From Catajapyx aquilonaris (lineage: Eukaryota), in assembly GCA_000934665.2 (NCBI GenBank), contig JYFJ02000514.1, forward strand, positions 62,001 to 126,000: 64,000 nucleotides of DNA. The letters are read 5' to 3'. Numbering within the stretch: the first letter of the stretch is position 1; the number at the start of each line of letters is the position of its first letter. Both the position numbers and the translations under genes were made by a program. The notes under the pieces are model-generated. The model saw only the letters and a program-made list of their open reading frames with translations, had not been told where the DNA came from and did not search any database. Positions 18,081 through 61,795 of this stretch are shown piece after piece.

Positions 18081-18152
18081 TGACCTGCAAGGCAACAATC
18101 TGACGGTCATCAGACGCGATGACTTTGCCGGAATGGGAAAACTGAGGATTCT
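18081..18152 (+). CDS. sli: Slit LRR exon (72 nt): DLQGNNLTVIRRDDFAGMGKLRIL
   Basis: Acceptor tcttccttttttctttacag|, branch-like cttaac at 18053-18058, donor CT|gtaagt. Encodes one 24-aa LRR, phase 2-2. Not represented in the ORF track. Confidence 0.95.
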
Positions 18153-20968: not shown

Positions 20969-21040
20969 CCAGCTGATGGACAACCAAGTCGTCACAGTGG
21001 AGCGAGAAGCCTTCCAGGACCTGGTGTCGCTGGAGAGACT
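20969..21040 (+). CDS. sli: Slit LRR exon (72 nt): QLMDNQVVTVEREAFQDLVSLERL
   Basis: Acceptor cttttcatccttttacag|, donor CT|gtgagt. Forms the C-terminal part of ORF 20847..21044. Confidence 0.96.
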
Positions 21041-30000: not shown

Positions 30001-33000
30001 AATCGTGCGTTTCCTGTACCTTTCTTAAATTCGAGAGAGCTCGTATCTAACTGAAATCATCGTCAGAAGCTGGTCTGTTTTGGGGCGTGAATCCGACCAC
30101 TAGCAACCCGAAATCTGTCAGTCCAACACGTGTCCCAAGCAGTGTTGAACATTAGGTGTTACCAAAATGACACGACGTCTTGACTCCAGCAGTAGCAAAG
30201 CCCCCGCATGAATTAGTAACGAGCCTGAAAAAGAACATCCAGTTTTAAATATTTAATCTTCCTACCTTGTGAGGACGGTATATGTACGTAACACTGGTGC
30301 TCCAGGCTGCTTAAGTGGACTTCCGCTTTTGTCAATACTCCAGGTCTATACACACTGTGTGCTATATGTGCAGTGTATGTTTCTGGAGCACGTTTCTGCC
30401 TCTCCACCGCCCACCTATAATACATATACAGGGTGGTTCGCTGTCCAAGTCAACAGTCCAAGCATCAACAGTCATATTGTTACTTCTTTTCAAACTGGTC
30501 TCTGGGGGTTAGCCATTGCTCAAGATCTCTCCTGGAACTGTCTCCTTTGGCAGTATCCAGTAAGCTAATAATAATAATTGAGCCTATAGTATAAGGACCG
30601 GGGGGAACATAATTTGGCAGCAAATACAATTTGATGCTCTCAGGATGTCGAAAAGGAGGAAAACTGTATGCGACGGGGGAGGAAACACAGGATTTGGAGT
30701 CTGTGTGTGTGTGTATTGGGGAAGAAAGATATAGCTTGAGAGAAGGGCCATGGTTGTATGCATCTGGCTGGCAGGCAATTGGCTCCTGAGGCTGAGGATT
30801 TGCGAGAGGAAACGGATCAAAGGAAAAGGAGGAATTCTGGTTTTGAGGAGGGGGGAGAGACATCCTCTCTACTGCCTCTTTTTTTTTGGCTGGAGAGCTG
30901 GAGAGTGAGACGAGGGGAGATGGTCAGAAGGCGATTCCAGCAGCATCTGGGGTAAAAAAAAGAAATGCGAGGGTCCGGACAGTGTCCACACAAATCCCAT
31001 GGATCCCGCCTGGACAAATGACGGGTCTGGAAAAGGGACATTTTCTTGGACGCCAACAATGGTCCGGATTGGGTTCCAGGATTTGCTCTCTCCCATCCCT
31101 CTCTCCAGGAAGAGCTGCGAGCTCCAGGAAGTCCCATTTATTTCACCAAGGTGTATATTGCCAGGAAGGAATCGATCTTTGATCAGTCGATAGTCACAAA
31201 TATGCATTGATTTTCGGTGACACATCAACTGACGATGCTGGCGGATGAAGCAATATTTCAAAAAGAGGTGGGCTGGCAACATGAATGCGAATCGCTTAAA
31301 TTATTATGACGGGCTGTAATTGCGAGCAATAGTCGTAAAGCACTTAAGTATCGGTCCGGACACGCATTATACTTCTTTTGTTGGGTCTGCTAATGCGTGT
31401 TGCGCATATCGGATCGCCCAGTAATTGCCTGATTATTATTGTCGCCGATTCAGGTTTTCATGGGGTTTACGCCGAGAATTTTTCTCGACTTGTCGTGATG
31501 GGGAATAAGGGGTCATCAGCACTTTGCCATCGGGATTTTTCCCCCCCCTTTTCTCTTTTTTTTTGGCCCAAGGACGGGCTTCTGAACGGGGCCAAAATTA
31601 CGACTGGGGAGTGATGGGCGAATTTGCATAATTAGATCTCTGGGAGCGTTCAACTCGGTTTCGGATAGTGTGGGATGGAGCTGCCCCGATATTTTTTGGC
31701 ACTTTTTTTTTTGCGGTCGGGATAGAATTGCTTGCTAAACACTTAGTAATGAAGCAGTGTGTACAAAGTCGCCCGGGGAGATTTTTTATATAAAAAAAGC
31801 CCGGAGAGCCGGTTTCCACCAATTAATTAATATAGAGCCGGAGGCAGCTAGTTCTCAGCAGTGTCACTCGACTTGGAAGCTGACAGATCCTCTGAAATCA
31901 CTCCAGTTTCTTGCTTTCGTTGGTTGGTTTTGTTTGCATGCTCTTTTGTGTGTGGTGCTGTTATAGAAAGTCCATTATGGTTGCTGCGGTAACAGAGTCC
32001 GACAGTGTTTCCCCTCCTGATTGGTATGCTCCACCGATGGCTTCCCAACGCGGCCAAATTGGGTCCCAGACTTCATTATTCATGGTGAGATTGGAGGTCT
32101 CTCCCCACCCACCCACCTGGTACAGCAGACAGCCTCCTGTGGCAGTGATTGGATATCAAACCGACACACACCTGACGTGAAAACAAGCACAAAAGATGAT
32201 GGAGTTGAAGGAAAATTCTGGGGAATGGTTTAGTAACCTGCTCAATTACGTGCGATTCCTGGTTCGAGCCAGAAGCACGCCCCCTAATGGACCGGGGATT
32301 CTGCCGATTTATCTCAAGCGCAGGCTTTAGTTGGAAAGCGTCACCGGTTCAGAGAAGAAAAAAATAACCTGGAAAATGGGGATGACACGCAACTGCTGAT
32401 TGGACGCTGTCAGCAGCGACGGATGCAACACGTCGTTATCCGGCAGTCCGAATCTCGGAGAAAATAACGGAGGATTGCTGCAAAGGATGACGCCAAAACA
32501 TTATAATAAATCGGGAGAAAGCTTGGAAAATGCAGGGTCCAAACCATATAGAGTTGAAGGCGATATTTGTTGACCTCGAGCGAGGAACCGAGCCATCATA
32601 TGCTGATTTACTTCAAACGCAATGTATGAAATAACCTGGAAGGTATGCGGACGCGCGATTTTTCATCATGCAAAAAAGAGAGGGTGGGCTGATATCCGTG
32701 CACTTTGACCTGGCAAGAATGAGATGAGCCCGAGTCATAAACACACGTGTGCTCCGTTACGAAATCCTCAAAAATTTTGAAAAAAAAGAGGTGGGAGGCG
32801 TGGACACCGCAATTAATAACCGGTTTTATGTATGCTGGGCAGCGGCCAGTTGTGCGCCCAACTCGGCGAGTCTAATTAGAGAATAATTTTGTCACAATAA
32901 ATTACTCCGCTGCAAGAAGTGCCCTGTCTCAACAGGTACCCAGAATCATTAATATTTATACTATACATTCTACAGCAGACTGCATTGCCCAAGTGTTGAC

Positions 33001-33015
33001 TTCCAATGACCATCA

Positions 33016-33037
33016 ATGATGATGATGATGATGATGA
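33016..33037. repeat. (ATG)n microsatellite
   Basis: Read directly. It explains the poly-His and poly-Ser runs in spurious minus-strand ORFs. Confidence 0.9.
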
Positions 33038-36000
33038 AGTATACTTGACGCCAATGTAGAGAAAGTGTGGCTGTGCCAATGAGCCGAAAATACGACCAAT
33101 TTCGCAACACTTTTTTCTCCGAATCGGAAGGTCAGTGTATGTATTTTTATGTGGACAACTACGCGTTGGTGAAACAGAGAGCAACATACCCCGCATGAAG
33201 TTGCCTTTGAGGCTAAGAAACACGTGCGTTTTAAAAGGGGGCATGTCATGCGACTCTTGTTGGCTTCTTCTAAGGAGCTTGGTTGCTGATTGGTTTGAGA
33301 AGTCGGCAAACAAGGCGGCTCCGGTGCTCAAGAAGTGGAGGAATTTCATCTCCCAGGCTGCCAACTGGAAAGCAGATCTGGCTATATAATAAGGAGGAAG
33401 AGGAGGAGGAGGATCTGACAGGCTGGAAGCCACGAGCTGTCATTCCCGCTGGGCATAACTGCCAGGGGGTATAATACTTTCCAAAAAAAATCAACCCACA
33501 TAGACCTACATACGCTCTCGGGTTTTACTAACAGGCCTCACCTTATTTATATTTGTTGGACCTGCTCCATCGGGTCTTCCCGGAAAACGACTGGCGCCAC
33601 ATTTTGGATCCAATTAGAGCGTATTAACTCGAGACCACCGGTTCCAAGCTGAAGGTGCTGGTTTATTCACTCTCAATGAAACAAGCTCTTCGTATATAAT
33701 GACCATCGACAATTTTGGCATCAAACCGTGTGTTCTGTAATTATGTGTTCATGCTATGCAAATTCGCATGGGCCGTATTGACAATCAGCGTTGTGTATCA
33801 GCCAATATTGAAACTGCGACAAAGTAATAACTATGCTCTATAATTAAAAGTTAGCCCAATGGTGCCTGTGAGCCACTTTTGAAAATCGATTCAATTGTGA
33901 CCTTCCCGCAGAATTTGAATTATTGGAACATGTGCTGAACTTTGCAAAAGCAAGGACGATATTTCTCAAGTAAGAAGCACTTCAATTATACTATGCAGTA
34001 TGAATTAATTCTGGGCTTACTTTGACGCGTCTGAATCCGTGTTGCGACAAATTTTTTATGCGGATTTATGTCGTGGCGACCAGCGCTAATGGCGGTATAA
34101 AATATGTCCATTTTCTGCTCCTAATTATTATTTGCGAGTGCAAATACGGGTCGGGGCCGTTACAAGCCCGGATAATTGGTGTGGTGACAAAAATGTGGCG
34201 AATTCCCCGAATGCAGCCCAGCCAGTCCAACTCGGCGCAATATATTCGCAAATGTCCGTCACGCTCGATTATTAAAACGCATTGGGGGCTGCCAGCCCGG
34301 AAAATAAATCCGGGTCTCTGAGAGAGGCGGAATACAAAAAAAAACTGTAAAAAAAGACGTAATTTTTCTGTCGCATGGTCCCATCTGGTCCTGGATTTGC
34401 TTGGAATTGAGGTACCCCCGCGAGAGTGCGAATATTTCGCGAAAATTCTACACGTGTCTGATGAGATAGACGCTTCTTGACAAACAGGCCTGAGGGAGTC
34501 TTTGCCAGCGGGGCAGGCTGTCTGAGGATATTATATTCAGGCGGGGTTTTTGGCGGCTTCCAGCAGATGATGCCTCATTTCCACATCTGCTGGGCCCAAA
34601 GGGGGGGGGGGGGGGGATGTTTTTTTTTCTCTTCTTCTTCGAGTGAGGCACGAGCCGCCTCCCGCCATGTTTGTCTTCTCTTTTTGGCCTCATCCCGCCC
34701 CCCTGCTTACAGAATTACTTAACCAAATGAAAGAGTGGCATTCATCCGGGGTGAGGAAACTCACACCCGCATCATATGTAGCCCACATCCTCAGAGAGAG
34801 CACTCTGAACTATTTTTTTTAAATATACAAAAATTGTAGAGTTTCGTAATATTTGTCATTGGAGTCACTTTCATAATATGGAAATGGACGCCCTTTTATT
34901 TCCACCCGAGTGATTCGAAGGCAGGAATCGCGCTATTGGGGTGGAAAATGCAAAGGGACATTATTGTCAGCGAGGTTCCCTAGGGCGTGTTCGGACCTAC
35001 TTGTTAGAAAGTTGGTAACGACCTGGACCCTGTATAAGTCCTCGGGGAATTGGCAAATCCCGGATTATGTCGGCAGCGTGTCCATCTTGCTTGTCGCACT
35101 CCATACATATAATATCGGGGGCTGTCCCATCATAAAATAATGCAGTGCTGGACGACAAACAAACTACTTGGGCTGAGGTGTATATAGACAGTGAGAGAGC
35201 CTTATTGGATATTCCGAGCTGGGCTTTCTGCATCGTCACCTTTTGGCCCCCCTCCTCGCCTCCAGACCAGAGCTGCTGGATCTGACTTTGTAATGGCTGC
35301 CGTCCAACTTATTGCTTTCGGTATACACGCCTTTCTCAGGGAGGGGGGGATTCCCCACCAGGAAAAAAAAATCCCACCGGAAAAAAAATGGAAAGGAGAA
35401 AGAAGAAGAAGAAAAAAAGGTGTTTGCTCAGGGAAATCCTCACATAAAAGATGGAACAAACCGGCCCCGTTAAGCAGATTTGGAGCTAACCTGGTCTTGG
35501 CGGTCGCGCGAGCGACATTCCGGTGACATTCCTTGGGAAAAAACCGATTCCGAGGATTGAATATTGATGGGTCGCATTGACCAAAAAAGCCCAGCACATC
35601 CATTATATACTATACCAGCTGTGGTGAGAAGAGCTGCTGAAATGAGAGAGAAAATAATTGGCTGGAAAACGTGTTCTTTTCACCCTTCAAATTGATAGTA
35701 ATGATGCGTGATGAATAAACATGCCTTTACTCTTAGCGTGGCTTATGATTAATGCCCCCGCTTGTTCGTGTGCGGGTAATAACTCGGGTTATTGCGGCCG
35801 CGGAATCCAGAAGCACATCCCGTCATTTTGGCTATGCTAACAGGCGATTTTTAAAAGGGGGGGGGGGGGTTTCCCCGCGATGATATTCGCAAAACGCTTG
35901 CTTACATAATAAGTAATTACAGTTAAGGAACCATTGTCGTTATTGCGAAGCTAGGCTGTTTTGCAATATTCATGTTTGCATATTGAAGCGCGTTTCGTCT

Positions 36001-37466
36001 GTAATGACATGTTGTATGACAGCTGTGGCGATCAACCCCGACACAATTTGGACAACCCCCCCACATAAATGATGGGTCTGGGACTCAAAAACGAGACGTC
36101 TTATTTACCTTTTTGCGGCTATACGAGAAAAAAAAGGAAGTCTTGGAAGTTGGGCACCCCAAAACGTGTAATTATCTCGCAAAACACTGTTTTGATCCGC
36201 GCGAGTCTCATGGAATTTGGAAAGGAAGAAAAAAAAGCGAGTGCCTGGCGACGACGTGTGTGGCATAAGCAGCTTTCTTTTTCCGGCCGATAATAATCAT
36301 CGCTCGAGTTGTTTGGCTGGCCTCTTAAGTGCGAGTACTACAGGGCGGCACAACGCCCAAGTCCATACGGCTGGGAGTGAACAATGTGGTCCTTTTCCAG
36401 CATCAGTTTAGCATACTGGGTGCATGTAAGCAACGGGGAGATTCCAGTGCCAGCAAGCAGCATCAGGCTGCGTTTTCCACTGATTGCGCTTCAGGAACAC
36501 CTGACGTGGCCCCAGGTGTGGCTTTTGAAGTGATGCAGCCAGAAACACAGGCAGGCAGGGAGAGAGAGCCAGCCTGTCTGCCTCTGGATGCTTTGCTGAA
36601 ACTCGTGGATGCACGTAATATCTGCACAGGGTGGACCAAACCTGCTGGCATGGTTTTGTGGTATTCAGAGGCTTTCTCGTCGCTGATAAGGAACATGTTG
36701 TATATGTACTGTAGTACACCCACCTGATGGACTCCTGCAAACCACAGAATTTAGTTTGAATGGGCTGTAGGGCTGATGCTTCTCAAGCTGCATATTGGGT
36801 TTCAGAGGCGGTATACCTTGCTGGCTAATTAGAACGCAATTATACCGTATGTAGGAGTGTCTTCGCCTTTGAAAGGAGCTACCTCGTTCAGGATTCAAAC
36901 GTGGATGGAGTGATGTTATTTTGAACATTGGCATTGGCACAGATGTCGATACGTCATAGCCATACGTCAAAAAATGCGGACTGGCCTGTCGATTTGTATA
37001 TGGCTGCAAAAATAGGCACGAATTATTATCGGCAGGCATCAAACCCAAAGAGCTTATACACGCGGCATACATTTGGACTGCATGTATTACTAATGGATTG
37101 AAAGGCTCTGACATTGTGTTGTTGCCGGGTTAGGCCCGTATTCTGAAGGGGTAAGGAAGTGGGTGCCAAGCCTACCATTTTGTGGTGTTGTTTGCAGTTA
37201 GGCATCATTTTCGTGGCTCCCCTCCAATAAATTAATTAAACATATCCTCAATTTGAGGCCTGGCCAGCCGGTGAAGTGAATTACAGTCCTTCATAAAAAC
37301 GCGGTAATTTCCGCAATTACGGCGCGGTAATTGTTTAACAGCGCTTTATATAGGCTGCTGCTGTCTGCCCCACGGGGGAATCTGCTGGCTGCTCTATACG
37401 ACGGATAACCTGTTGCGTTCCCGGGTATAATCATAACTCAGCGGTAACACGAAACAGATTGACTGC

Positions 37467-37487
37467 GAGAGAGAGAGAGAGAGAGAG
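37467..37487. repeat. (GA)n microsatellite
   Basis: Read directly from the sequence. Confidence 0.9.
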
Positions 37488-38373
37488 CTCTACTTTTGAA
37501 CCGGTATACTAATCGCACATTGATTTTGGAGTCCAGCAATCACCGAAGGGCAAACATGCTATTGCTGGTTGGAACGCGGTAAATTAGGATTGTGCTGCCA
37601 GCCCCCAAACTATTTCGCTGCTTCACAATCCGTGCGGCACAGATATGGATCCACTTCCCGAAAATGAGCTCCTAATAAATGGAGTCGGTCGTTCCGGGTT
37701 CGGGTTGCTATCGACCGCAATGATCTATGGACAGGACATATCTCCCTAATTACATCTCCTCGGCCCGATAAATGCGCCTGTTTAGTCCACCCCCCATTTT
37801 TTCTCCCATCTTCTTCTTATTCTCTTTTTGTGCCCTGTGAGAAAATAACATACGTTCCAATGGTCTCGGAAGTTCCAATCAGATGTGAGGCTTGGGAAAA
37901 ATTATGGGTGGTCCGGCGCTCCCTTACCCACAATGGGTACCCTCGGGCCACGGGTATACGGCGGCCGAGTCCCCGCATGCTATATACTCTACCCCTTTCA
38001 ATGTTTCTCGTGTATACTGCACATACAGTGTAGTACCCATTACCGTGTCCCGCGCACTCTTGTTTGTTTATTGCTATTAAGTGGCGCAAATGCTGCAGCC
38101 AAAGGTATGAATTATAAATGTTGGCCACTTGGAAATGAAACCAGTCCGGCGTGAACCTCCTTTCGCATCGCGGATCCAACGGAAATGCTGGGGCCCCCAG
38201 TCATTTAGCAGTAGTGGATGCTGGGGTTCACTCAGGAAAATGAAGCTGACCCGTAAAATATTTCCATTGGGGGGAAAGTCCTTCATTGATGGATAAAAGC
38301 AGCAGAAGCCCATTGCGTCTCATTCTGTAAAAAAGCGGTGTGGAAACGAGCTCTATAAACGGGCTGAGTCACA

Positions 38374-38635
38374 TCTATGATATTAAAATCGTAGTGGGCG
38401 CCTTCTGATTGGTCCGCCGCATATTGTTACCTCGACGCTTCCGATTGGCCCGCGTTCTACGCATGCGCAGTGCGTGGATACAGTGCCTCTGGTAGGTCGA
38501 AGGAGGAACTATCCGTTCGCTGACGGACGGAGGGTCTACTTCGCTCCACAGTGGCCCCCACGCCGAAGTGATTAACAATATGACCTCCACCACCGTCTCC
38601 CGCAGGCCTAGAAAAAAAGGCGAGCGAATTTCTAG
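38374..38635 (+). mobile_element. Non-autonomous Helitron-like element, copy A (262 bp)
   Basis: A|TCTATGATATTAAAATC 5' end, CTAG|T 3' end preceded by a small gcct-agaaaaaa-aggc hairpin, inserted in an A-T dinucleotide. Homologous copies lie at 41620-41802 and 44742-44802. Confidence 0.65.
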
Positions 38636-40784
38636 TTCGATAAAAGCCTATAGTTTGTATTAACCCCTGAGTCCGATAAGATATTCCCGTCATGATCGTA
38701 GGGCATGGGAATGTTGGCTGGAAGAACCTACTCCCCACAACAGGTTGAAAACAAATGCGTTGGTTTGAGAGGAGGTGGCCCCGAACACCAGAGAGTTTGA
38801 ACACATTGTGGGCAGAGTGATCCGGAGAATTTGGAGCCCCTCTTTGTTCCGGAGGGGGGGGGGAGGGGAACAAAAAGGACAATCGGTGCCATTGAGAAAA
38901 ACCCGAATAATAAATTCCTTGTTCGGCAGCAGCATCACTCTGGTCTGATTGGTATGCACCCGCACGAGCTACCAGACATTGGAACAATCTCCGGGGATGA
39001 ACCCTGATGAGTTCTCTTCTTTCTCCCCCTCCATATACCCACGCCTCTCACAAGAGTCCAGAAACCCTTTTACAAGGTGAGAAGTCTGGAGGGAGATATT
39101 TCATGTGCACTGATACGCACAGGTGTGCGTTGCGGGACCTCTCTCTCTCTTTCTCCAGCTCCATTTTTTTTGTGGCGTGTGTGTGTGTGTCCGAAATGGG
39201 CAGGGTGTGGCCCGGATTCATTCCTGATGTGGGAGGAACAGTTTATACATACATAAGGAAGTGTGTACAAGTGGGGAGGGAAGGGCCGTTGGGGACAGTC
39301 GTGAGAATGATCGCCAATTGGTTTTAAGCACCAGCAGACACGCTATAAGGATTCAACGAGGTCATTTGACTGGTTTCGAGATTCCATTTTTTTATATATC
39401 CCCCCCCCCCCTCCGGATATTCCGGATGCGATTCGGAGTGTCCCGTAAACAAGTCCGGAGCAGAAATATTAGTGAGATATAGTTCCCGCCCCCTCCTGTA
39501 AGGAGCTAAGGGCAAAAGTATGGATTTCCTGGAAAGTTGTGGGCAATGACCATAAGTTAAAGCAGCTAGTTGGCGTCGGACAGCCAGGAGGAGCCATGGA
39601 AACCGTAGCATTTGCAAGTAGATGTGGGGAAATGGGGCGGGGGCCAGATCAAGACTTATGGAGCTGACTGGCGGTGCCCCATAGCCAGCAGGGAGAGAGA
39701 GGGATAGTCGGTGCTATAGTGCTCACAATCTGTCTGCTGGCGGAAGGAAGGCGGCGCAAGAAATATACAAACAGCAAATTCGTTGGCAAATCTGAGAGGA
39801 AATGAGAATCTCCCTGTGTGCTCGGGATCAGAAAACTCTCCAGGCTGTAATTTTAGTTGAACTCATCTTTTGCACCTGTGTGTGATTAAAGGAGTAATAT
39901 TTCTCACACCCCCTCGTGACTGCTGCGTGGGCGCGTGCGTAAGATCATCAAGCAATATGCGGACTATATTATGTATGCTCCATGGTTGGAGGGAAAGGGA
40001 ACTGAGAGAAGGGAGAAAAACTCTGGTTGCCAGAGCTTAATTCCCCCGGCTCTCCTTGGGGAAATCCACGTTTTATTAGCTGTCGTCGCTTCCGCACCGT
40101 CGCTTCTAATCGTCATCGAAGGTGATAAGCAGGCGTGAGGGAGGGAGGCTTTGAGGCGACCCCCTTAACAACCGCATATTACTCTGGTTATGCGTCAACC
40201 CTTGGATTACCACTGGGAAAATGAAGGATGGGGAGGTGCTGTATATACGTATAGAAAGGATCAGGAATACTTCTCCGAATTCCAGCCAATGGTCTATACA
40301 AGGGGGGGACCTAAAGTCATTACAGTTCGTGCAAGCAGACCATCATAAGGCCCTTTGGCTATACGCGTATGCGTTTATGATGACCATCATTGGTATTGAT
40401 GGTTTGTGACGTTTGGTGTTATTCAGATTTGCATATCATCCGATGTAGCTAAGACCGTCAATTATGAGAAAATCCTGGATTATGTGGGGGAAATGGCAAT
40501 GGGAGAGCTTTTCTCTCGATTTTAATTGATGTGGTAATCCCCGATTATGTATCTTCGCAATTCATTTGAGTTGATATATACCAGCACCGGCCCTTAGTGA
40601 ATGTCACGTGTGATGATGATACTGATAAATATTCTGTACAATTTAAATTGAAACTATGCACGTGGAAAGAGTGCACAGTTACTTGCTCCAGAGACATGTT
40701 CATTATCAAGCCCGGGATTACTACAGTATTGTCATTATTGGTCGGCCAGTTCTATACAACGTATACAACCTTTGAATGTTTCAG

Positions 40785-40856
40785 GAGACTGAACAACAAC
40801 AAGCTGCGGCACCTGCCAGACATGCTGTTTGGGAACATGCCCAACCTCCACCGCCT
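40785..40856 (+). CDS. sli: Slit LRR exon (72 nt), probable cassette exon: RLNNNKLRHLPDMLFGNMPNLHRL
   Basis: Acceptor tttgaatgtttcag| with a weak pyrimidine tract, donor CT|gtgagt. Forms the C-terminal part of ORF 40597..40860 and fits the LRR consensus. Confidence 0.93.
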
Positions 40857-41619
40857 GTGAGTAGTACAGTGCACGTATATAGTACAAGATACTCGCATGT
40901 GACGTTGCATATCTCTGTATAAGCGAGGCTTGGGAAAGGGATTTGTAAAATGGAAGAGAAAGAGCGTCGCGGAATCCGTATCCAAACATTTGCAGAGGTG
41001 CGAGTGAGTGTCTTTCCATGTTGATCGCGTTCGAGACTGCTCCTGTCACGTTCCTCATCCGACGAACGACGAACGGACTGCGCAAAAGAGAAAAAAAAGA
41101 AAGCACGAAAGACGCAAGGCAGTCTTCCATCAGGTCCATCGCTCCATCGGCGCCCTCTAATTCCATTTGCACCGAGACTGACATTTCCCTGATTCACTTA
41201 CGCCGACGGTTAATTATCCCTTTCCGACTAATTGTTTCCTGCTAGTCCCAGAAGATGTAAAACGTGGCAAGTTCTTTACTTTGCGCCAAGTCTCGGAAGA
41301 AGAAGAAGGGAAAAGTTAATGGCCGCCACTTGCTTCTTCTTCTTCTTGTATAAACCCCCACCCCCGCCTTGTACTCTTTCGCAAATTGCTTCTTCCCTCA
41401 TTGTGCTAAGCACAAACTTTTCATTCGGCTTCCAACAAAGTTTCCCCTTTTTTCTACTATAGACTTGTCCAAGGAGGACTTTTGTGCCCGTTAATTGCTT
41501 TGCATGTTCACTGCCGTTTTCTGTTCGTCCACTGATTACTTTTCCCACCTTCATTTACCTTATTCCCGTCGTTTTTGCCACCCAATCCCCTCTGAAGAAT
41601 ATCGAAGGACTTTACTTCT

Positions 41620-41802
41620 GTAGAAAACAATTTTTTTTCCTAGGCAGACAGGGAACGAATGGACAGTTTCTCCTCCCGCCCACCAGAGGCGCTCCCGGCA
41701 CCCCCATTGGGCATGCGCAGAACTCGGGCCAATAGGAAGCGTCGCGGTAACAACAGTACATATGGCATAACCAAACAATGTCGGATTTTAATATTATATA
41801 GA
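41620..41802 (-). mobile_element. Helitron-like element, copy B (inverted, internally deleted)
   Basis: The minus strand begins TCTATATAATATTAAAATC. The reverse complement of 41705-41753 matches 38424-38472 at 43/49 nt, similarity continues to ~41656, and it ends gcctaggaaaaaaaattgttttctac. Confidence 0.65.
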
Positions 41803-44741
41803 CGTCGATGAGCGGAATCCAAGATGGCGGTCGAGCTATGTCAGCGCCAACTGGTGGGTTCATCAGTCCAATTTTCCTCCGGCACATTCGCTGCTGGGAA
41901 GTGAATGAATCGCTCTCTGAAAGTTATCCCCGGGCACTGAATCCGGTTTTATGATTGCATTAGCACTCCCTTTTCGCCTATATCCATGCCGGGTAATGCC
42001 AGGGGAATGGAAACCATTATACGGGTTCGGGGGGGGGGACGAGTGTTGTCGGCAATATAGACGAGGCGTCGTCGTCGCTCCTGCTGACGTGTTTGTGGGT
42101 GGGGATGAGGAGGAGTCTATACAGACACACTTTTACTCACCCGATGAGACTCTTACTTTCCAGTAGCAAAACCCTGTATACCCCACAGTGAGAAGGAGAG
42201 AACCCCCCACCCTCCCCACTACTTCCTCTCTCTCACCCTCCTCTTTTTTTTATTGCTCGTAAATTCCTATCCGAAAGACAAATTTATAGCGCCTCATTAC
42301 CTTTATTACGATAAAATGTAGCGTTTGCTCAGGCTGCGAGTGAATTCCGAGAACATATTCCACTCGATCCTCGGCCGCAATATTGCACTTTGTGTTGTTG
42401 GGCTTTTGGAGGGGGGAGCTGGATGGGACCCCCGTTTTTGGGGGCTTGCCAGGTGGAAGGTGGCGATTATATACTCCCAGCTCAGTTATCCTGCTGGAAA
42501 AGCAACTGGGTTTATGGCCCGGAGTTGGGAAGAGCGATGCTGGAGACGCTCGCTGGGGGTGGTGGAGGGAGGCGTCGCGGCGCAATAAAATAATTTTCAT
42601 TCCACTGCCGCCACGTGCAAATAGGTGGCAGCAATGTCTGGCAGGGGCAATTCCATATGGGCAGGTCGACCATTTTTCCGACTTTCGAAAAAAAAAGTGC
42701 AAGTGAGACATTATGAAGGAGCATTTTTCAAGTGGTAGAGGTCAATAGGTCCGGCGAAGTAAAATAGGCACTCTCTGGTAAGTGTAGAACCGTGCCATAT
42801 GCGTAGGTGGTGAGCATCATGAGACTGCATGGTATACCCAGGAGGCGACCTTCACCCGGCCCCTACCACCCCATTAGTTATCCTCTCTCCAAGGCAAAAG
42901 AAGAAGAAGAAGGCCCAGGTGGCAGTTGGCACAGGTGTTGGCTGGGAGTAGTTGTCTGGACGAGCGGGCCTCTCACTCTCTCTCGGGTCATCCGTAATCG
43001 GCCATCACGCTGCAGAGTCAGTTCCTGCTCAAATAACTTGTGGGTGTCAAGTCACGGGGTCGGGTCTTTGCTAGCCAAAGTCATGCAACCCCAGGTGTTG
43101 GCTCGGTCCACAGAAAAAAAAGGAAGGAAAAGAAACGGTGGACACCTGGTCCAATTCAGCGAATATTTTGCGACGTGAATGTCAAAAGATGATCCGGATT
43201 TCCAGCCTATAGGATTAGGAAGGGTTGACTTTGCGCGGATTTATTTTGCAAGGTGCTGCTACAGGCCGGTGTTGCGTGCGGTGGGGTCGTCGACGACCGT
43301 GATGATGATGATGACAATAGAGGTCCCCCCGCCAGCATCTGTTTGACGTTGGCAGCACGTTTTCACCCGGATTCGTCTCGCCGTCGGTTCCAACACAATT
43401 CTGCACGCACGCAGCACACAATGCTGCCCCGCTCTTTTCAACACCTCACTCACTCACACATCCCCCCCACATGTGCCCACCCCACACACGAAAAAACCAG
43501 CTGTCTGGCTCACCGGGAGACCATATTTTCCAGCTCGAAAAAGGGACACCCTGTGGACCTGTGTGCTGTTGATATTAGTCTCCGTTTTCCATGAGAAACT
43601 CGCTTTCCATAATTTTGCGCACGCACTGGTGTAGTTGGAGGCCTCTGGTTTGTAACGTGTGACTAGCAGGTGTGGCAATGTATGCATAAGGTCCCAAGTC
43701 CCCAAGTAATCCGTTGGAAGCAGATTCTCAAACTGGTTTCTGCAGTAAGCAATCCATAACTTGTGTTGGACTTGGGCAGCCCGCAAGAACCAACTGTACA
43801 TTTCCCTGCAGGCTTGTAGGTTCATGCAGTAATGCAAGGGGGGCTGCGGAGAACCCATACCCTTCTACTGACAAATGAATAATTCAGCCGGTACAGTAGC
43901 ATTGTTAGCATATTCAGATGTATCGTGCAGATAGGCATTGTTTTGCAAGGAACGTGCGCGCAATGACCAACGACCCGTGCCAGAATCGTACACACATTAG
44001 TGTCGTCAGTTCCTTGCACGTCCTTTAATCACCTTTTTTGGAACTCTCATATCTTTTTAAGGCTGATGAAAATTTTAAGAAAAATCAGCACCGGGCATTG
44101 AGCGTCCTTCCGCATTCCAACACCTTGCTTCTTTATCGAGGCAAACCATTTTTCTCGAAAAAATTACGACCATGCTCGTGCACCAGTAACGCCCGATTCA
44201 TGCACAACCTATTCGACACACACACACACAAAAAAAGAGAGAAGAAGAAGAAGTGCTAATACCCCAAGTTTCACATCACGCACAGCCTTCATCGCATCAG
44301 CATTAATTCAGCGACTGCTACTTACCAATTTCCAAGGCAACAACGTAATTTTCTTTTCCCCAAGCAGCAGGCCCAGGCTAATTGGCACGGCCGTTGCATA
44401 ACTCTCTCTCTCCCCCCTCCTTCGGATGAGAAGAAATGACAACCGGAGATAACCAAACGTGTTTTATCGTCGGAGGAGCCAAGGTCGGCTTTGTTGCCTA
44501 GGAATACCTGCTGGCCCAATAAGGAAAGGACCACTGCTTATTATTTAGCTGTTTTTTTATAATAAGCAGGAAATATTATTTTGGGGAGCCTACTTGTATA
44601 GCTGTTGGAACTGTAACTGCCCCCGATTCTGTATAGTGTCATTTGAAGAAATGGCGTCATGTAAGTCTCTATCTCGTGTGTGTCGAAATTCATACAATTT
44701 TTGGTCGTCTAATCCTGTTGTTATTGAGTTCCATTGACGTG

Positions 44742-44802
44742 ATGGCGGCCTCCACCATCGTAGGCCGCAGACCTAGAAAAGAAACGAACAATAAGCTATA
44801 GT
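44742..44802 (+). mobile_element. 3' fragment of the same element family (copy C)
   Basis: cctccaccatcgtaggccgcagacctagaaaagaaacga resembles copy A cctccaccaccgtctcccgcaggcctagaaaaaaaggcga. Confidence 0.55.
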
Positions 44803-47800
44803 ATACAATTTTCGCATGAATGTAAATCATACAAAAAAAATAAGCGGGTGTTCCTTTTCTTGTAGGACCACCGTGTTATTGGTGTTGATCGAGCTGCTAG
44901 CATGTGACACATGGGTAATAACCGGGTGTCCAACAGAATGGCGAGAGGAAATCAATTTCCCGCCACCCATTCTGGTTTGACCACGATCGTGTAAATACTT
45001 TGGCCACAGTGTTTTAGCAAAAATGCCCACCTTTGCGAAAGGGAAAAAGGCTCGTAACTCTTCTAGCTTATTTACGGGTCCATCCCTCCCCACCTGTGCA
45101 AAACGGGTGGGAAATTTGATCCATGTGCTGGTCCGACCTGTTAGGCTAAGTTATAAGGTGCAAACAATGACCCAACACTCCTGCTGGAAGCCTGGATTTT
45201 TTTTGTGCGATTCGCCAATGGAGAAAGTCGCATAAATAATTTGCGAAAATGTTTTATATAAGATTCCACTCCCACACCTTTGGGCCCAGCTCGCACCTTT
45301 CTTTTTTTTATCTCTTTTATTTTTCGACCATCGTATAGCTAAAGCAAGCAGCATGGGTAATGTAATAAAGCAAGTACGGGTCTGATAAGTGATGTAGACT
45401 GGTGCTTGCCGTACAAAAGGACCCGCCTGGAATAATCCCGGGATTTATTCGAATGAGCCGGTTGGACGACACTAATCTCCGGGTATTAATATTTATGGCT
45501 GCATAACAAGAAAGGCGGATTTAATGCTACTGGTCGGAGGATTCCCTCCAACAGGTTTCGACCAAGGAAGGGGAGGTGGAAATGACACCAAAAAAAAAGA
45601 AAGAGGGAAAGAGGGGGGGTAGATTTTAGGCGAAAATGAAAATTGGATTCAAAGTGGCGGAGCAGCATTTGCAAATCAGATATACTTTTCGTTGGGAGCA
45701 ATACGGCATGAAATGGAAACCCCAATAATTAAGGCTCGGGAAGGGAAGGAAAGGGTAATTAGCCCCATCGCCATTATTATCCTTATTGTCGAGGGTGCCA
45801 TATCTGTCCGGGACGGATTCTGCCTAATAATGTATACTGTACACCCAAGTAATTAGGCCTCGAAAATATTACTGCGGACAAATGATTTTTCTTTTTCCTT
45901 CCGCATTTTCTGTACATACGTTTGGGTGTGTGTACAGCAAGGGCTGTCCATTGGCCATATGTTGGCCGAAACATGTGACTGGCGATGGTGAAGCAAGAGT
46001 CGTTGGAGCTTGGAATGTGATGAGGTACGACAGAGTGTGTGATGATTAAAGACGGGCTGTCTGGCCCGGAATTGCCAGCTGTCGTTTCTGCTGGCCTGGC
46101 CCATTTCTCTCTTTTGCTTTTCTGCCACCGAGGCTACCCCTATAGTCATAGTGGGCCTCTCTCGTGCTGACTTGGCTCGTCATTTGCCAAAACCTCGAGT
46201 ACCAGGGGAGGCTGGTTGAAAAATTAGGAGCCCGGATTGGAAACTAATTGCATGCAAGGGCCGCGGTTCATTTTTCTGACACTCGTGTGGTATAGTTTTC
46301 CTATAAAGCGATATCATTTTTTGGCGCCTTTTTGGTCCACATGATTACAGCAGAGTTGATTTGTTGGGGGAGCAACAGTGTAGCAGCCGAAGTTTCTCCT
46401 CTTGGGAGCCAAAGGTATTTGTTGAGTTTGGTTTGACGGAAGGTTTGCTCCAACCGGCGATTAGCTTCACCCGAGGGTGTCACGGCAGCAGACGGAATGA
46501 AATTTACGGCCGAAAATGTGCGGTATGGGGTGGAGAGATCCCTCATGTAGATGCGACACGTCTCTTTTAGTCAAACAACACCGTGATGCTTTTTGTTGCG
46601 CTCTCTAACTCCCATGCACGGTGTTGTATAACGAACAGGTTTATTTTTTTTTTCTCCACGGTCCTGACACTGATGTCGGAAGTGGTTGCTGCGTGAACAC
46701 GGAATCATAATTTATCCGGCCAGTGATCCGGTCGTAAAAATGCCCCGCCGATTAGCAGCGTCAATCATATGGAGGTGTCATCAACTGCAACAATGCGGCA
46801 GCCAGGAAGTGTTTCTTGCGCACATTTCAATTGGTGGTAAATGCTGCTTGGTGTGCTTCCATCCCACTTGGGCATTTTTATTTGGCGTCCAATGAGAGAT
46901 GGACATGCAGATAGCGTCATTGCCGCCGACGCTTTATGTTCTTCCCCGGAGGGGAAACCAAGAAAAAAATAAAATAAGATAACTCGGACGGAACTGGTTT
47001 AACCTCTTGGGGTCAGGTTTTGGCCCCCCTCTTTCTTTTGAATATATATTTTTTGCAGCGATTTCATGTGTGTGTTAAGCCTTCATCCTGTTATGTATGA
47101 AGCAGGCTGGGTTTATGGGGTCGGACGGATTGTATACCCTGTAGGAATATATGGGGAGGGAAGTTGGAGGGGATGGATAATTGGAGACGAATGTGATTAA
47201 GAGATCAGGCCGATTCAAGGGAAGCTGCGTGCCGCCGGAGGGGGAGAAGAAGGAACAGAAATCCGAGGATTCACAATAGTGATTTCTCGGAGGGGAGGAT
47301 AATAAAAAATTGGTGGCAACAAAAAAGCCAAAATGGTTTTGGACGTATTGGAGGGGGGCTTAAGTCCGAATGCGCAGCTGCGAGGATTATTTGCACCTTC
47401 CCTCGATGTCAATCTGCTCAGGTCCTAGACCCAAGGGGACACCCTTCAGATTGATATATTGACTTAAACTCTTAAAGAGGATGCTGTGATGGTCATATTC
47501 CCATGGGAATGGACCCGCAGCATTTTTTCTGCCCAAATAATTAGCATGGCAATATGTAGAACACCAAACTAACAATATGTGCTGCAACAGAAAAATGCAG
47601 TACTGCAATCCAGGGATATAGAAAAGTATAAATTGTGACTCATGTTTGAACAAGTATAACAAGCCAGCACTTTTCCTGCAGCGAACATGGAAAAATTCGT
47701 ATCAAAAAAAAAATTGTATGGAGTTGCCCCACTTCCTCTTATACCGCATGTGCAGTGAAGCAAAAACGGGCCATAACGGTGGCTGTGTAGATATTCAGTC

Positions 47801-50800
47801 CGCTGAATGTTATACCTCAAATTAAGCTCAGTTGTGGGTCTTTCCAACTGGAACCGGCAGATATGCTCGATTACATTTTCGCTTCCGCGTCGATAAATTA
47901 AGTGTGTGGTTCTTGACTGATTTGTTTGATTCCGTTTACTGCGGGCTTTTATATCGATCATTAAATGAGGCTATTTATCTACCGTATATACAATCGGACC
48001 CTGCGATGATATAAATTGCTGGTTCGTGTACTCTATACATTTGCTTAAAGTGTATTTCAAGAGAAGGTATACAGTACGTAGCTGTGCGATGCAATTGGTA
48101 CAAATGATGACTAATGGGCGTGTTATTAACACTGGGTGTATCGCACAGCGGTTGACCCTGTGAATGTATATTTGGGCCATTCGGATGTTTCATTTTAGTT
48201 TTCCATATCGGGTGCAGGGCATGAATGATGATCCCGTGTCAACACCCTTAGGAAATTATTAATCAATCCAAATTAACCCTGATTAATTCTACCCGGCGAG
48301 TGATTTGCGAATTTAGGCAAATCCGCGTGTTCCGGATTTATGTTAAAACTATACGCCTTGTTTTCAAGGGAATGGTCCAGGCAACACCGTTGTGAACAAG
48401 TTGCAATTTTTTTTATTTGCATTTTTTTTTGCCAGTTTGTGTAGGACATTGTCGCAGCACAATAGCTTTTTACACAGGACAAGCCAGCTATTGTTTGACG
48501 CCGTGATTTTTTTTTTAAATGCGCACTGCTGCACGAGGTGTCAAAAATATCGACTCCATTTCCCCCCCCCCCCGACGATGTCTGCTTATCGGCTGCAAAA
48601 AAAAGTTGCGTGTAATGACGGTCCGCCAAAGAGGATAACCTGGAACCGTCAAAAAAAGTAGCACAATGTCACACGCGCAACTAAAAAAAACAACCCAGCT
48701 TTGCATTTTTTGGGGGGACATTTCGTTATCGTCGCAAATAAGCCTTGACTTGGGCTTCATGCGACGATCGGAAAGTAAACATTATTATACCCACAGTGTA
48801 CGATCACTTTTAGCTCTCTGAAGCCGTAGTAATTCGACTGCTTCAACCGCGATGCATTGCACGGTTAATTACATGAAATTTACTAGAAAAATGCCCCGGA
48901 ATTTGTCGCTAATGAGCTCCACGCACCTTCTCTCTTTTTTTCATTCCCCCCTATTATTCGGCCCTAATGAGCAATTTCACGGAAGTTAGCGGTATTGGCA
49001 TGGCCCAGGGCTGGCAATAAATGGCTGCACTTGTATGGGGCCTCTCTCTCTATGGTTGGACCACCCCCGCCTCCCCAGTAGAGAGAGCTTCATTTGCGAG
49101 GTCGCGCGACTTAAATAACCCCCCCCCCCCCCCCCCCCNCCCGACACTTTGCTTGTGTTTGGTCGGGGAGGTGTTCGCCCTCGGGCCCGTTTGTTTTCCT
49201 CTTGCTTTTATAGGGTGTTTGGAGGGTCAGAGAGAGAAAGAGTAGAGCCGAACACACCGTCCGGGACTCATTTCGAAACTTGTTGGGTTTCTACGATTGG
49301 GTCCCATTTCGGATCTAAAGCCAGCCGGAAAGAACACACACTGGGGCTCAGTTTATATACCAAAAGTCGATTTGCTGCACGTGGACTGCTGGTTGAGTAC
49401 AGGGTGTATTTCCAAGCCTGTTCCAATTAACCGGAGTATTTTTGATACGGTGTCCCCCGCTGGGTTGCTGCACCCGATCTGAATACAACAGCCAGCCCAT
49501 AAAACCATTTGAGACTTGGATCGGACCTTGGCCTCAAAATTGGGACTAATTTGTTTACACTGCAGGCCATGCAGCCACAGGGCGAAACACACCCGTAGTC
49601 TTTTGGACCACCATGTGTTTGGGACCCGGGGGAGAAATGATGTTGTATGGGGCTAGGTTGTGCACGTAATCAGGGAGCCGCATCTTTTCTCGATATTTAT
49701 CGCTCTCTTTCGAATGGGGATGTTTTTGCCTGCTGCCATCGTCCGGAGTAGCTTTCCATTAGGCCTCCCAAACTAATTGGCTGCCTGCCTCTCTACTTCT
49801 AATTTTTTTTTGTAAAGCTTGTCAGGGGCGTGGCTGCCACATGAGACTACCTGGCACCCTTGCTGGATAACCACGCTGTTTTGCGGTCGGCTCATTTGTG
49901 AAAAAAAAGGCATGCGAAATATTTTGCACCCACGTCGAGACAAAAATTCCGACTTACTGGAGCTAAGCCGCTGTCAGATTTCGAATGCTTGTAATAATAT
50001 TCCTCGAGCTGGTGACATCCGATGCATTGTGGCGGGTCAGCTCGAATTAAATCCGACATGAAAAGCAAAGAGTCGCAACATGAGTCAACAGGCAAATTGC
50101 AAATGCGATTTTGCAAGGGGGGGGGGGAAGAGAGGATCGGGCTATACCCCCTGGAGTGACACGCGGACTGACAAACGCACAATGCTTCTTAGCGATTGAC
50201 AAAAACCAATCTGGACGCTTTTGATGTAGCATGCACGCCAGAGGACCAAGAATGGATGAGTAATGCTCTCCATCACGCCACGCTACAGTCTGGTGCACTT
50301 CCCAAGTACATTCTACTTGCACTGGAAGAAATTGTCTGATTGTTCACTCCAGAAGCTGCACGATGTAATTCGGTAGAAACTACTTCATATGCTGCGGTTG
50401 AACAATTTCTGCCCGTTTTTCACCCTGATTGGGCCGTGTTGCTTTGAGCCATGAGCCACCCTGTACATCCGTCCAATCGACTCAGGTATCGATTGAAACA
50501 CTTTTCAAACCCCAATTACATCAGCAATTGGCGCTGCCAGTGAGTACCAGGCTCCTGATCCTGGCTGGCAGGCCATCCCGCAACGCAGGATGCGAAGATG
50601 GTTGCCTAACAGACAGGATCTGCGAAACTGATTCGACCCAGTTTATTTGCGCGCCAAAAAAAGCTGATTTCATTACGTTTGAGTACTCGGCTATATTTTG
50701 CGGTTTTGGTCAGATCGATGAAAGCGCGCGGCCGACCCTTACACGTGAAGGCCTCATTATTCTTTCATACAATTAAATTATGAGATTTATCGCCAATCTA

Positions 50801-51449
50801 ATTAGCGACTTTGCTGCAACGCTATAGTGCTAGACTTGGGCTAGACCAATGGCTAGACAGTAATAGCACACACATGTGAGGTATGATTAACGGGGGGCTG
50901 AGGAAAAGGGGGGCAAAAGTCTGCGGGCACCATTTTCCCAGCGGGGATTGTTGCACTCGCATGCAATTACATTTCCCTTTAACGTTTGCAGCGGAATAGT
51001 TGTTGCGAAGTGAGTGCAGCCGAAATGAGCAAAAGGGAGCGGAGGCTTTTCCTATGTATAAGGCCTTTTCCCCAAATGAAACTTGCGGCCTGTGCAAAAG
51101 GGTCTGTGGACACAACTGCAGATTTTGCAAATTAAGTGCTGGCTGCTATACCACCCACCCAACTTTAAGCCCAACGCTCTCCAAAAACTGCAAAACAGCC
51201 AAGTTGCAATAATCGTGCGAAACGCATTTTCCCCCCCTCCTCACCTTTTTCTTTTGTCGACAACGGCAGAACTTCGGCGGTTGTGTCGCAGCCAGAAACC
51301 GCGAAAGAACGGTTTTGAAATACTGTAACTGAAGACAATCCGGGAAGGGTTTTTTTTTTGTTGTTGTCCGGATCTAGTTTTCTAGGCGGCGGAGGAGGCA
51401 AGAGAGCTTGGGTCGTTTGACACTCGTTTCCGGAGCAAGGAAAATGCCC

Positions 51450-51483
51450 GGATTATTGATCAAGAGGGATTATTGATCAAGAG
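51450..51483 (+). repeat. Perfect 17-bp tandem duplication (ggattattgatcaagag x2)
   Basis: 51450-51466 is identical to 51467-51483. Confidence 0.9.
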
Positions 51484-60400: not shown

Positions 60401-60590
60401 GTCAGCTGCCCCGCTGGTGTGACGTGACATGACATGACGTTGTCTACTTGTTGTACACACTTCCATGCTCCGCCGGATATAATTGCGATATGCATTTATT
60501 CATTTATTACTATTAACCAGGATGCATTGTTTTACGCTGTTAACATATTTTATAGCTTCAAGTACATTTTCTCTATTTTTCTCTTTGCAG

Positions 60591-60662
60591 CGACATCAGT
60601 CACAACCAGTTGACAGTGGTCGGGAAGCGTATGCTGCGTGGAATACCGATGCTCAAGTACCT
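60591..60662 (+). CDS. sli: Slit LRR exon (72 nt): DISHNQLTVVGKRMLRGIPMLKYL
   Basis: Acceptor ttttctctatttttctctttgcag|, donor CT|gtaagt, phase 2-2. Confidence 0.95.
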
Positions 60663-61409: not shown

Positions 61410-61481
61410 CCAGCTGGACAACAACCACCTGACTTGCATCGACGAGGCAGCCATCCGGAGCCTGAAGGAGCTTGAAAGCCT
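61410..61481 (+). CDS. sli: Slit LRR exon (72 nt): QLDNNHLTCIDEAAIRSLKELESL
   Basis: Acceptor ttcttcttccttcacgcag|, donor CT|gtaagt, phase 2-2. Confidence 0.95.
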
Positions 61482-61559
61482 GTAAGTTATATAGACGTTA
61501 ATCAAGCGACAGCCACTAAAATATAATTGTTGGTTCTGCTTCCCTCTCGGCTTGCGCAG

Positions 61560-61795
61560 AACCCTGAACAACAACAACCTGACGACCCTGGCGAAGGACA
61601 TCTTCGACAACCTGCACCGCCTACGCACCCTCCGTCTCTCAGACAACAACTTCATCTGCGACTGCCAGCTCGGTTGGCTCTCCCGGTGGCTCAAGAGGAC
61701 TCCTCGTCTGGCCCTCTTCACCAGATGCTCATCTCCCTTCCAGTTCAGAGGAAAGAGTCTCACAGAGCTGCAGGAGGCAGACTTCAAATGCTCAG
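61560..61795 (+). CDS. sli: Slit exon (236 nt): last LRRs plus LRRCT of domain 1 (TLNNNN...FKCSG)
   Basis: Acceptor ttccctctcggcttgcgcag|, donor TCAG|gtatct (phase 1). Lies within ORF 61552..61815. LRRCT pattern NxFxCDCxLxWL...C..P....G.........FKC. Confidence 0.95.

What the first reader, a model, noticed from the sequence alone, without database searches (positions are those of the whole stretch)
38374..41802. Inverted Helitron-like pair brackets the Slit RLNNN LRR exon: candidate RNA-structure splicing switch
Seen: copy A (+, 38374-38635) lies ~2.1 kb upstream of the 72-nt exon 40785-40856, and copy B (-, 41620-41802) lies ~0.76 kb downstream. They share ~100 bp of complementary core, with 43/49 identity in the best block. 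All three family copies I could find fall within ~4 kb of this exon in a 64-kb window. Known: inverted repeats flanking an exon can pair in pre-mRNA, loop the exon out, promote skipping or back-splicing, and attract ADAR. Inference: TE-derived pairing could tune inclusion of one LRR in Slit domain 1. The arrangement could also be chance, and ~80% identity gives only an imperfect duplex.
Basis: partly seen in the sequence, partly recalled or inferred. Interest (0 to 1): 0.7.

Follow-up and report, generated by a model that had tools for sequence, protein, structure and literature searches.

The report
Inverted repeats bracketing a Slit exon
Two old copies of a common short repeat lie in opposite orientation on either side of one small exon of the axon-guidance gene slit and could pair in the RNA, but nothing here shows that they change how the exon is spliced.

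Summary
Copy A (38374-38635, +) and copy B (41620-41802, -) share a 98-nt core at 77.6% identity, including a 43/49 block. They bracket the 72-nt exon 40785-40856, which encodes LRR3 of Slit domain 1. It is the only strong inverted pair in the 64-kb window.

As RNA the cores give -136.8 kcal/mol, against -53.8 +/- 5.4 for shuffles. The stem also survives in the minimum-energy fold of the whole 3.4 kb. The family has roughly 200-500 genome-equivalents at 80% likeness or better, so it is not dense enough to make such a pair expected at this locus.

The splicing claim could not be tested, because no RNA run was available. Of 23 A/B differences, 14 are private departures of one copy from the family majority. 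That fits neutral decay, though selection on pairing is not excluded.

The same LRR3 unit is missing from annotated Slit isoforms of Drosophila, Culex and a weevil. Cassette behaviour therefore probably predates the pair. The exon also has the weakest acceptor of the five 72-nt exons.

Verdict: a real candidate of a known mechanism whose function is undemonstrated, most likely incidental.

The parts
38374..38635 (+). Repeat copy A (262 nt), in the upstream intron, 2149 nt before the exon
   Evidence: It starts A|TCTATGATATTAAAATC and ends TTTCTAG|T. Contigs from elsewhere in the genome pile up on it.
38424..38520 (+). Core of copy A that is complementary to copy B
   Evidence: 98 columns at 77.6%. 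RNAduplex -136.8 kcal/mol, 80 bp, z -15.4.
40785..40856 (+). 72-nt exon encoding LRR3 of Slit domain 1 (RLNNNKLRHLPDMLFGNMPNLHRL). Acceptor with 12/20 pyrimidines, donor CCT|GTGAGT.
   Evidence: 19/24 identical to LRR3 of P0001 and P0019.
41620..41802 (-). Repeat copy B (183 nt), in the downstream intron, 763 nt after the exon. It lacks about 85 nt of A's interior.
41656..41753 (-). Core of copy B that is complementary to copy A
44749..44783 (+). Third, fragmentary family member (3' end only, 29/35 identical to 38584-38618), same orientation as A
   Evidence: A GC-rich 7-bp hairpin lies just upstream (z -3.2).
21041..40784 (+). Upstream intron, 19,744 nt, from the LRR2 exon 20969-21040
40857..60590 (+). 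Downstream intron, 19,734 nt, to the LRR4 exon 60591-60662

Best explanation
A and B are two separately decayed, differently deleted members of an abundant short non-autonomous repeat family of uncertain class, with Helitron-like ends in one copy. They sit in the two ~19.7-kb introns that flank the LRR3 exon of an arthropod slit gene.

In the pre-mRNA they can form an imperfect 80-114-bp stem that closes a ~3.1-kb loop around the exon. Most likely this is a by-product of where the copies landed. Inclusion of the exon is probably set mainly by its own signals (weak acceptor, strong donor, symmetric 72 nt) and by whatever already makes the orthologous exon a cassette exon in other insects. The stem would then add little or nothing.

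Shown here: the repeat, its abundance, the duplex energy, the exon's identity, and LRR3-less isoforms elsewhere. Inferred: that the pair has no material effect on splicing.
For: - Of 23 differing columns between the cores, 14 are places where one copy (7 in A, 7 in B) departs from the majority letter of the genome-wide family. In 14 of 14 the majority letter is the one the other copy keeps. No difference looks compensatory (from table 3; 19 further rows of that table were not shown).
- Each copy lacks a different piece that the family majority has (loose-end consensus, alignment). They are therefore separate derivatives, not a tailored pair.
- Among 134 Slit proteins covering LRR2-5, 3 lack exactly LRR3: Drosophila yakuba X3 (a 66-member cluster), Culex pipiens pallens X3 and Cylas formicarius X2. 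Three more lack LRR2 or LRR2+3. Skipping of this unit is therefore annotated in lineages that have no reason to share this pair. The second search was seeded with an LRR3-less query, so these are not unbiased frequencies.
- In humans, 232,493 Alu pairs flank constitutive exons, the energy difference between skippable and constitutive sets is small (d = -0.12), and skippable exons with inverted pairs tend to have shorter downstream introns (PMC13019027, sections read). Here the downstream intron is 19.7 kb.
Against: - The pair is the only dispersed repeat at E<1e-3 in 64 kb. It is also the only bracket of 40 bits or more: 63 of 1080 sampled positions are bracketed, all by this pair, and the other five exons reach 24.7-30.1 bits.
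- Neither copy has a competing partner in its own intron.
- The duplex is strong (-136.8 kcal/mol; net -75.6 over the self-folds; 0 of 300 shuffles come close) and persists as 114 pairs in the MFE of the whole 3429-nt RNA.
- The bracketed exon has the weakest polypyrimidine tract of the five 72-nt exons (12/20 against 16-18/20) with a GTGAGT donor. Weak acceptor with strong donor is the exon class linked to loop-out skipping in PMC13019027.
- On a rough count of 200-500 genome-equivalents in about 256 Mb, an inverted pair this close is expected only 0.3-1.7 times genome-wide and 7e-5 to 4e-4 times per 64-kb window. The arrangement is therefore not explained by family density alone. It needs luck, clustered insertion, an undercount of old copies, or selection.
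Confidence: 0.62

Rival explanations
1. Loop-out modulator. The A-B stem forms co-transcriptionally, sequesters the weak-acceptor exon in a 3.1-kb loop, brings the outer intron parts together and raises the share of LRR3-less slit mRNA (21040>60591). This would be a lineage-specific tuning of an older cassette exon.
For: - Strong stem that survives global folding.
- No competing complement in either intron.
- Weakest acceptor and a strong donor.
- The orthologous LRR is optional in annotated isoforms of three insects.
- Precedent in inverted Alu pairs, including the pair named as a driver of hominoid tail loss (PMC13019027).
- The local cluster of three family members is unlikely under uniform insertion.
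Against: - The skip needs the 21040 donor to stay unused while another 19.7 kb is transcribed (inference).
- Long downstream introns go against the human trend.
- The differences between the copies look neutral.
- Effect sizes in the best-studied system are small.
- The copies lie 2.1 and 0.76 kb from the exon, not close to it.
Confidence: 0.2
2. Back-splicing driver. The stem brings the exon's own 5' and 3' splice sites together and yields a 72-nt circular RNA, as the inverted DNAREP1_DM pair does at Drosophila laccase2.
For: The geometry is very close to laccase2: flanking introns over 9 kb there and 19.7 kb here; inverted transposon copies 75% identical over 106 nt there and 77.6% over 98 nt here (PMC4617980, passage).
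Against: In the laccase2 vector only inserts of 300 nt or more circularised efficiently, and this exon is 72 nt. The laccase2 repeats lie very close to the exon, unlike these.
Confidence: 0.04
3. Double-stranded RNA substrate without a splicing role. The stem forms in the intron lariat or pre-mRNA and is edited (A-to-I) or diced into small RNAs, with no effect on exon choice.
For: 80 bp with helical runs of up to 12 bp and only 5 G-U pairs.
Against: A mismatch falls about every 5-12 bp. That intronic nuclear dsRNA of this kind is a poor small-RNA source is my inference, not a test.
Confidence: 0.06
4. Repeat-borne regulatory DNA. The family core carries ATTGG boxes and a GCATGC-centred palindrome, so the copies act as intronic transcription-factor sites for slit and the inverted arrangement is irrelevant.
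For: The motifs are visible in both copies, and the family majority restores a longer palindrome. That they resemble known factor sites is recalled, not tested.
Against: There are hundreds of copies genome-wide, no conservation data and no chromatin data.
Confidence: 0.04

Closest known systems
Drosophila laccase2 exon 2 flanked by inverted DNAREP1_DM transposon copies (Kramer et al. 2015, PMC4617980; passages read)
   Same: An arthropod gene with very long flanking introns and an inverted pair of short transposon-derived repeats of about 75-78% identity over about 100 nt. Pairing was shown there to be necessary by disruptive and compensatory mutations.
   Different: The outcome there is a circular RNA from an exon long enough to circularise (300 nt or more was needed), and the repeats hug the exon. 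Here the exon is 72 nt, the copies lie 2.1 and 0.76 kb away, and no RNA product has been seen.
Inverted Alu pairs in loop-out exon skipping (Denisko et al. 2026, PMC13019027; abstract and two results sections read)
   Same: Transposon copies in opposite orientation in the two flanking introns within 5 kb, a predicted stable stem-loop, and a link to exons with a weak acceptor and a strong donor.
   Different: That is a primate SINE family of far higher density, with statistical enrichment plus a few validated cases. Effects are small and favoured by shorter downstream introns. Here there is a single locus, a different repeat family and a 19.7-kb downstream intron.
Modular 72-nt LRR exons of Slit genes (Little et al. 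2002, seen only as a citation and one sentence in PMC6642158), and annotated insect Slit isoforms lacking LRR units
   Same: One LRR per 72-nt, phase-symmetric exon, so skipping keeps the frame. LRR3-less isoforms are annotated in Drosophila yakuba, Culex pipiens pallens and Cylas formicarius.
   Different: Those isoforms are database predictions whose supporting reads I could not see. Nothing links them to intronic repeats.

Membership tests
Helitron-derived non-autonomous element | 5' end TC and 3' end CTRR | tested here: inconclusive
   Copy A has TC...CTAG. Copy B has TC...CTAC. The fragment at 44749 ends CTATAG. So 1 of 2 full copies fits. The rule itself is recalled.
Helitron-derived non-autonomous element | Insertion between host A and T, with no target-site duplication and no terminal inverted repeats | tested here: inconclusive
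   Copy A has A|...|T. Copy B has G|...|A. By reading the sequence, neither copy shows a duplication or terminal inverted repeats.
Helitron-derived non-autonomous element | GC-rich hairpin shortly before the 3' end | tested here: inconclusive
   Copy A has a 4-bp stem, z -0.29. Copy B has none, z +0.77. The third fragment has a 7-bp GC stem about 30 nt before its end, z -3.2.
Helitron-derived non-autonomous element | Related autonomous element encoding Rep/helicase | not testable with these tools
   No genome is held. Of the 77 ORFs of 70 aa or more in 34-48 kb, I scanned the 17 of 120 aa or more, and 0 of 17 hit Pfam.
Intron-pairing (inverted repeat) control of exon skipping or back-splicing | Complementary repeats in both flanking introns, in inverted orientation | tested here: met
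Intron-pairing (inverted repeat) control of exon skipping or back-splicing | Stable predicted duplex, beyond composition | tested here: met
   -136.8 kcal/mol against -53.8 +/- 5.4 for shuffles. 114 A-B pairs in the MFE of the 3429-nt RNA.
Intron-pairing (inverted repeat) control of exon skipping or back-splicing | The exon is seen skipped or circularised in this organism | not testable with these tools
   Only DNA contig runs could be laid.
Intron-pairing (inverted repeat) control of exon skipping or back-splicing | The outcome depends on pairing (disruptive and compensatory changes) | not testable with these tools
   This needs a minigene. The natural differences between the copies show no compensatory pattern.
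Intron-pairing (inverted repeat) control of exon skipping or back-splicing | For back-splicing: an exon long enough to circularise (300 nt or more in the fly vector) | tested here: not met
   The exon is 72 nt. The threshold comes from PMC4617980.
Slit domain-1 LRR3 cassette exon | 72-nt, phase-symmetric exon orthologous to LRR3 | tested here: met
Slit domain-1 LRR3 cassette exon | Isoforms without this unit exist | tested here: met
   3 of 134 Slit cluster representatives lack exactly LRR3. These are other species only, and they are database annotations.

The most novel reading that the evidence does not exclude
In this arthropod a transposon-derived 80-114-bp intronic stem loops out the ancestrally optional LRR3 exon of slit and shifts the ratio of six-LRR to five-LRR Slit domain 1. 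The local cluster of three family members around the exon would then be retained because of that effect. It would be an invertebrate, non-SINE counterpart of Alu-driven loop-out skipping, acting on an axon-guidance ligand.
Probability: 0.1. Interest if true: 0.55.

Novelty: new member of a known kind. Interest (0 to 1): 0.3.

Why it matters
If the pair does shift inclusion, it would show repeat-driven loop-out skipping outside primates. It would also show that a lineage-specific insertion can retune the LRR count of a conserved guidance cue. As it stands, the locus is a clean test case: a single strong pair, no competing repeats, and an exon that other insects treat as optional. One RNA-seq data set or a minigene would settle it. 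The more solid by-product is comparative. The LRR3 unit of Slit domain 1 is missing from annotated isoforms in flies, a mosquito and a weevil, so optional use of this exon is probably old and independent of the repeats.

Tried and rejected
- No whole genome is held for the window, so an exact genome-wide census of the family and of its pairs was not possible.
- No RNA holder was listed. The one run search gave 5 runs: 4 DNA contig runs of one sample and 1 run of unknown kind with next to none of the words. Junction counts, editing and back-splice reads could therefore not be examined.
- Rfam found 0 families in the window, and ARAGORN found 0 tRNA genes in 38000-45000. I dropped the idea of a tRNA-derived SINE.
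- Pfam found 0 families in the 17 ORFs I scanned, out of 77 ORFs of 70 aa or more in 34-48 kb.
- The metagenome scan with a 20-nt core word gave 1 locus that shares only 22 nt with the window, a chance match.
The 66 members of the LRR3-less Drosophila cluster therefore could not be named.
- Earlier notes of this scan held nothing for this genome or this sequence.
- I rejected a single composite element with A and B as terminal repeats. There is no target duplication, and the enclosed exon is conserved from tardigrade to insects.
- B is not a local copy of A. Each lacks a different segment that the family majority keeps.
- The 'opposite strands' joints are family copies that align partly to A and partly to B. 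They are not evidence of other inverted pairs.
- Paper searches and passages in PMC12308364, PMC6040699 and PMC5909645 gave no description of an LRR3-less insect Slit isoform. Supplements were not consulted.
Full report
**What is there.** The window carries part of an arthropod slit gene on the + strand. Five 72-nt exons with AG/GT borders and the same phase each encode one leucine-rich repeat of Slit domain 1: 18081-18152, 20969-21040, 40785-40856, 60591-60662 and 61410-61481. They are followed by the LRR6/LRRCT exon near 61558-61803. My 72-nt scan also flagged two spurious frames, 26575 and 35451, which I dropped because they do not resemble Slit. The best protein matches are insect and crustacean Slits, at about 70% identity at most over these exons. 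Exon 40785-40856 reads RLNNNKLRHLPDMLFGNMPNLHRL and matches LRR3 at 19/24 residues. It sits alone between introns of 19,744 and 19,734 nt.

**The repeat pair.** The repeat finder reports arms 38424-38472 / 41705-41753 (49 nt, 88%) and 38482-38519 / 41656-41693 (38 nt, 79%). blastn joins them into 98 columns at 77.6%, E 5.6e-16. A global alignment adds shared 5' ends and a shared 3' GCCTAG-A(7-8) stretch, and shows that B lacks about 85 nt of A's interior.

A self-comparison of the whole window at E<1e-3 finds only two things: this pair and an unrelated palindrome at 3394-3596. I then sampled 1080 positions and asked for the best inverted bracket within 5 kb on each side. Only 63 positions reach 40 bits or more, all through this pair. 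The other five exons reach 24.7-30.1 bits. A 3.1-kb interval dropped at random in the window would enclose an exon 20% of the time.

**Family abundance.** No genome is held. I therefore laid the contigs of three DNA runs of one sample, possibly the source of the assembly, and one unrelated run on 38200-41999 at 80% likeness. The three DNA runs gave 631, 626 and 582 laid contigs, almost all on the two cores. Summed word depth is 19-27 on the single-copy parts. It rises to 4,701-8,888 in bin 38327-38453 and to 1,870-3,001 in bin 41629-41755, then falls to 110-206 in 38581-38707.

The tool warns that this is not a copy number. As a rough index it gives 180-510 genome-equivalents for the core and far fewer for the 3' part. 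With about 256 Mb of contigs, 200-500 copies predict 0.3-1.7 inverted pairs this close in the whole genome, and 7e-5 to 4e-4 per 64-kb window. With 2,000-5,000 copies, if older copies below 80% are numerous, the per-window figures are 0.007-0.04. Three members within 6.4 kb point to clustered insertion, an undercount, luck across a very large scan, or retention.

**What kind of element.**
- Copy A fits A|TC...CTAG|T. Copy B does not (G|TC...CTAC|A).
- Neither copy shows terminal inverted repeats or a target duplication.
- A 3' hairpin is insignificant in A (z -0.29) and absent in B. The third fragment has one (7-bp GC stem, z -3.2).
- There are no Rfam, tRNA or Pfam hits nearby (17 of 77 ORFs scanned).

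'Helitron-like' is therefore possible but unproven. The defining rules I applied are recalled, not taken from a tool.

**Can the copies pair?** As RNA, the cores give -136.8 kcal/mol. Three hundred dinucleotide shuffles give -53.8 +/- 5.4, with a best of -80.9 (z -15.4). The net gain over the two self-folds is -75.6 kcal/mol. The duplex has 80 pairs, 5 of them G-U, in runs of 1-12 bp. In the minimum-energy fold of the whole 3429-nt stretch 38374-41802, 114 A-B pairs remain and close a loop that holds the exon. Neither intron offers a competing partner. These are thermodynamic predictions only. Proteins and co-transcriptional folding are not modelled.

**Signs for and against a role.**

For:
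- The bracketed exon has the poorest polypyrimidine tract of the five 72-nt exons (12/20 against 16-18/20) and a GTGAGT donor. This is a crude measure, since no MaxEnt score was available.
- Denisko et al. 2026 link loop-out skipping to weak-acceptor, strong-donor exons (PMC13019027, section read).

Against:
- Fourteen of the 23 differences between the cores are private departures of one copy from the family majority, 7 in each copy. In 14 of 14 the other copy keeps the majority letter. That is the pattern of independent neutral decay, not of maintained pairing.
- The same paper reports 232,493 Alu pairs around constitutive exons, a very small energy difference between exon classes (d = -0.12), and shorter downstream introns at skippable exons with inverted pairs. 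Here the downstream intron is 19.7 kb.
- My kinetic argument is inference. Skipping needs the 21040 donor to stay free until 60591 is made, some 20 kb later, whereas the upstream intron can be removed as soon as the exon is defined.
- For back-splicing the closest precedent is Drosophila laccase2: introns over 9 kb and inverted DNAREP1_DM copies 75% identical over 106 nt, with pairing proven by compensatory mutations. [quoted passage not shown] RCM-based circularisation in fly neurons also involves ELAV (PMC12404201, passages).

**An unexpected comparative result.** I aligned domain 1 of every Slit-like protein of 700 aa or more returned by three searches. That was 145 proteins, of which 8 were set aside as not Slit-like, leaving 137, with 134 covering LRR2-5.
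- Three lack exactly the LRR3 unit: Drosophila yakuba isoform X3 (representative of a 66-member cluster), Culex pipiens pallens X3 (18 members) and Cylas formicarius X2.
- One lacks LRR2 (Rhodnius prolixus X3).
- Two lack LRR2+3 (Diorhabda carinulata X5, and a Glossina pallidipes model).

Three caveats apply. These are cluster representatives and database predictions. One search listed only the best 120 of 1101 hits. One search was seeded with an LRR3-less query, so the fractions are not frequencies.

Still, the orthologue of this exon is annotated as optional in two insect orders. This fits the modular, frame-neutral design of Slit LRR exons noted by Little et al. 2002, which I saw only as a citation in PMC6642158. 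It raises the odds that the exon is sometimes skipped here too, and lowers the need for the repeats to explain it. I found no paper describing this isoform (searches; passages).

**Verdict.** Whether it does anything cannot be told without RNA. I put about 0.62 on incidental insertions with little or no effect, about 0.2 on a measurable push towards skipping, and small odds on back-splicing, dsRNA processing without a splicing effect, or a DNA-level regulatory role. If real, it would be a new member of a known kind (inverted-repeat loop-out or back-splicing), not a new mechanism.

Noticed in passing
window 3391-3600: A near-perfect palindrome: 206 columns, 82.5% self-complementary. It folds as one long hairpin, -154.4 kcal/mol, z -20.8, with 0 of 200 shuffles as good. 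It could be a foldback or MITE-like element or a hairpin-RNA locus. It is unrelated to the A/B family.
   Followed up: partly
window 21041-40784 and 40857-60590: The two introns flanking the LRR3 exon are almost exactly equal in length (19,744 and 19,734 nt), so the 72-nt exon sits at the midpoint of a 39.5-kb span.
   Followed up: no
proteins P0079, P0007, P0171: Annotated Slit forms also lack LRR2 alone (Rhodnius prolixus X3) or LRR2+LRR3 (Diorhabda carinulata X5, and a Glossina pallidipes model). Several of the 72-nt domain-1 exons may therefore be optional in insects.
   Followed up: partly
window 38405-38470 and 41705-41740: The repeat core carries two ATTGG boxes and a GCATGC-centred palindrome. 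The family majority letter at 41710 lengthens the palindrome. Any likeness to CCAAT-box or NRF-1-type sites is recalled, not tested.
   Followed up: no
table 5 (joint 41749 > 38400): In each of three DNA runs, one contig joins B-like sequence directly to A-like sequence ('goes back 3350'). This suggests at least one head-to-head adjacent pair of family copies elsewhere in the genome.
   Followed up: no
window 38848-38876 and 39389-39417: A G-run and a C-run (29 nt, 79% complementary, 512 nt apart) lie inside the loop between copy A and the exon.
   Followed up: no
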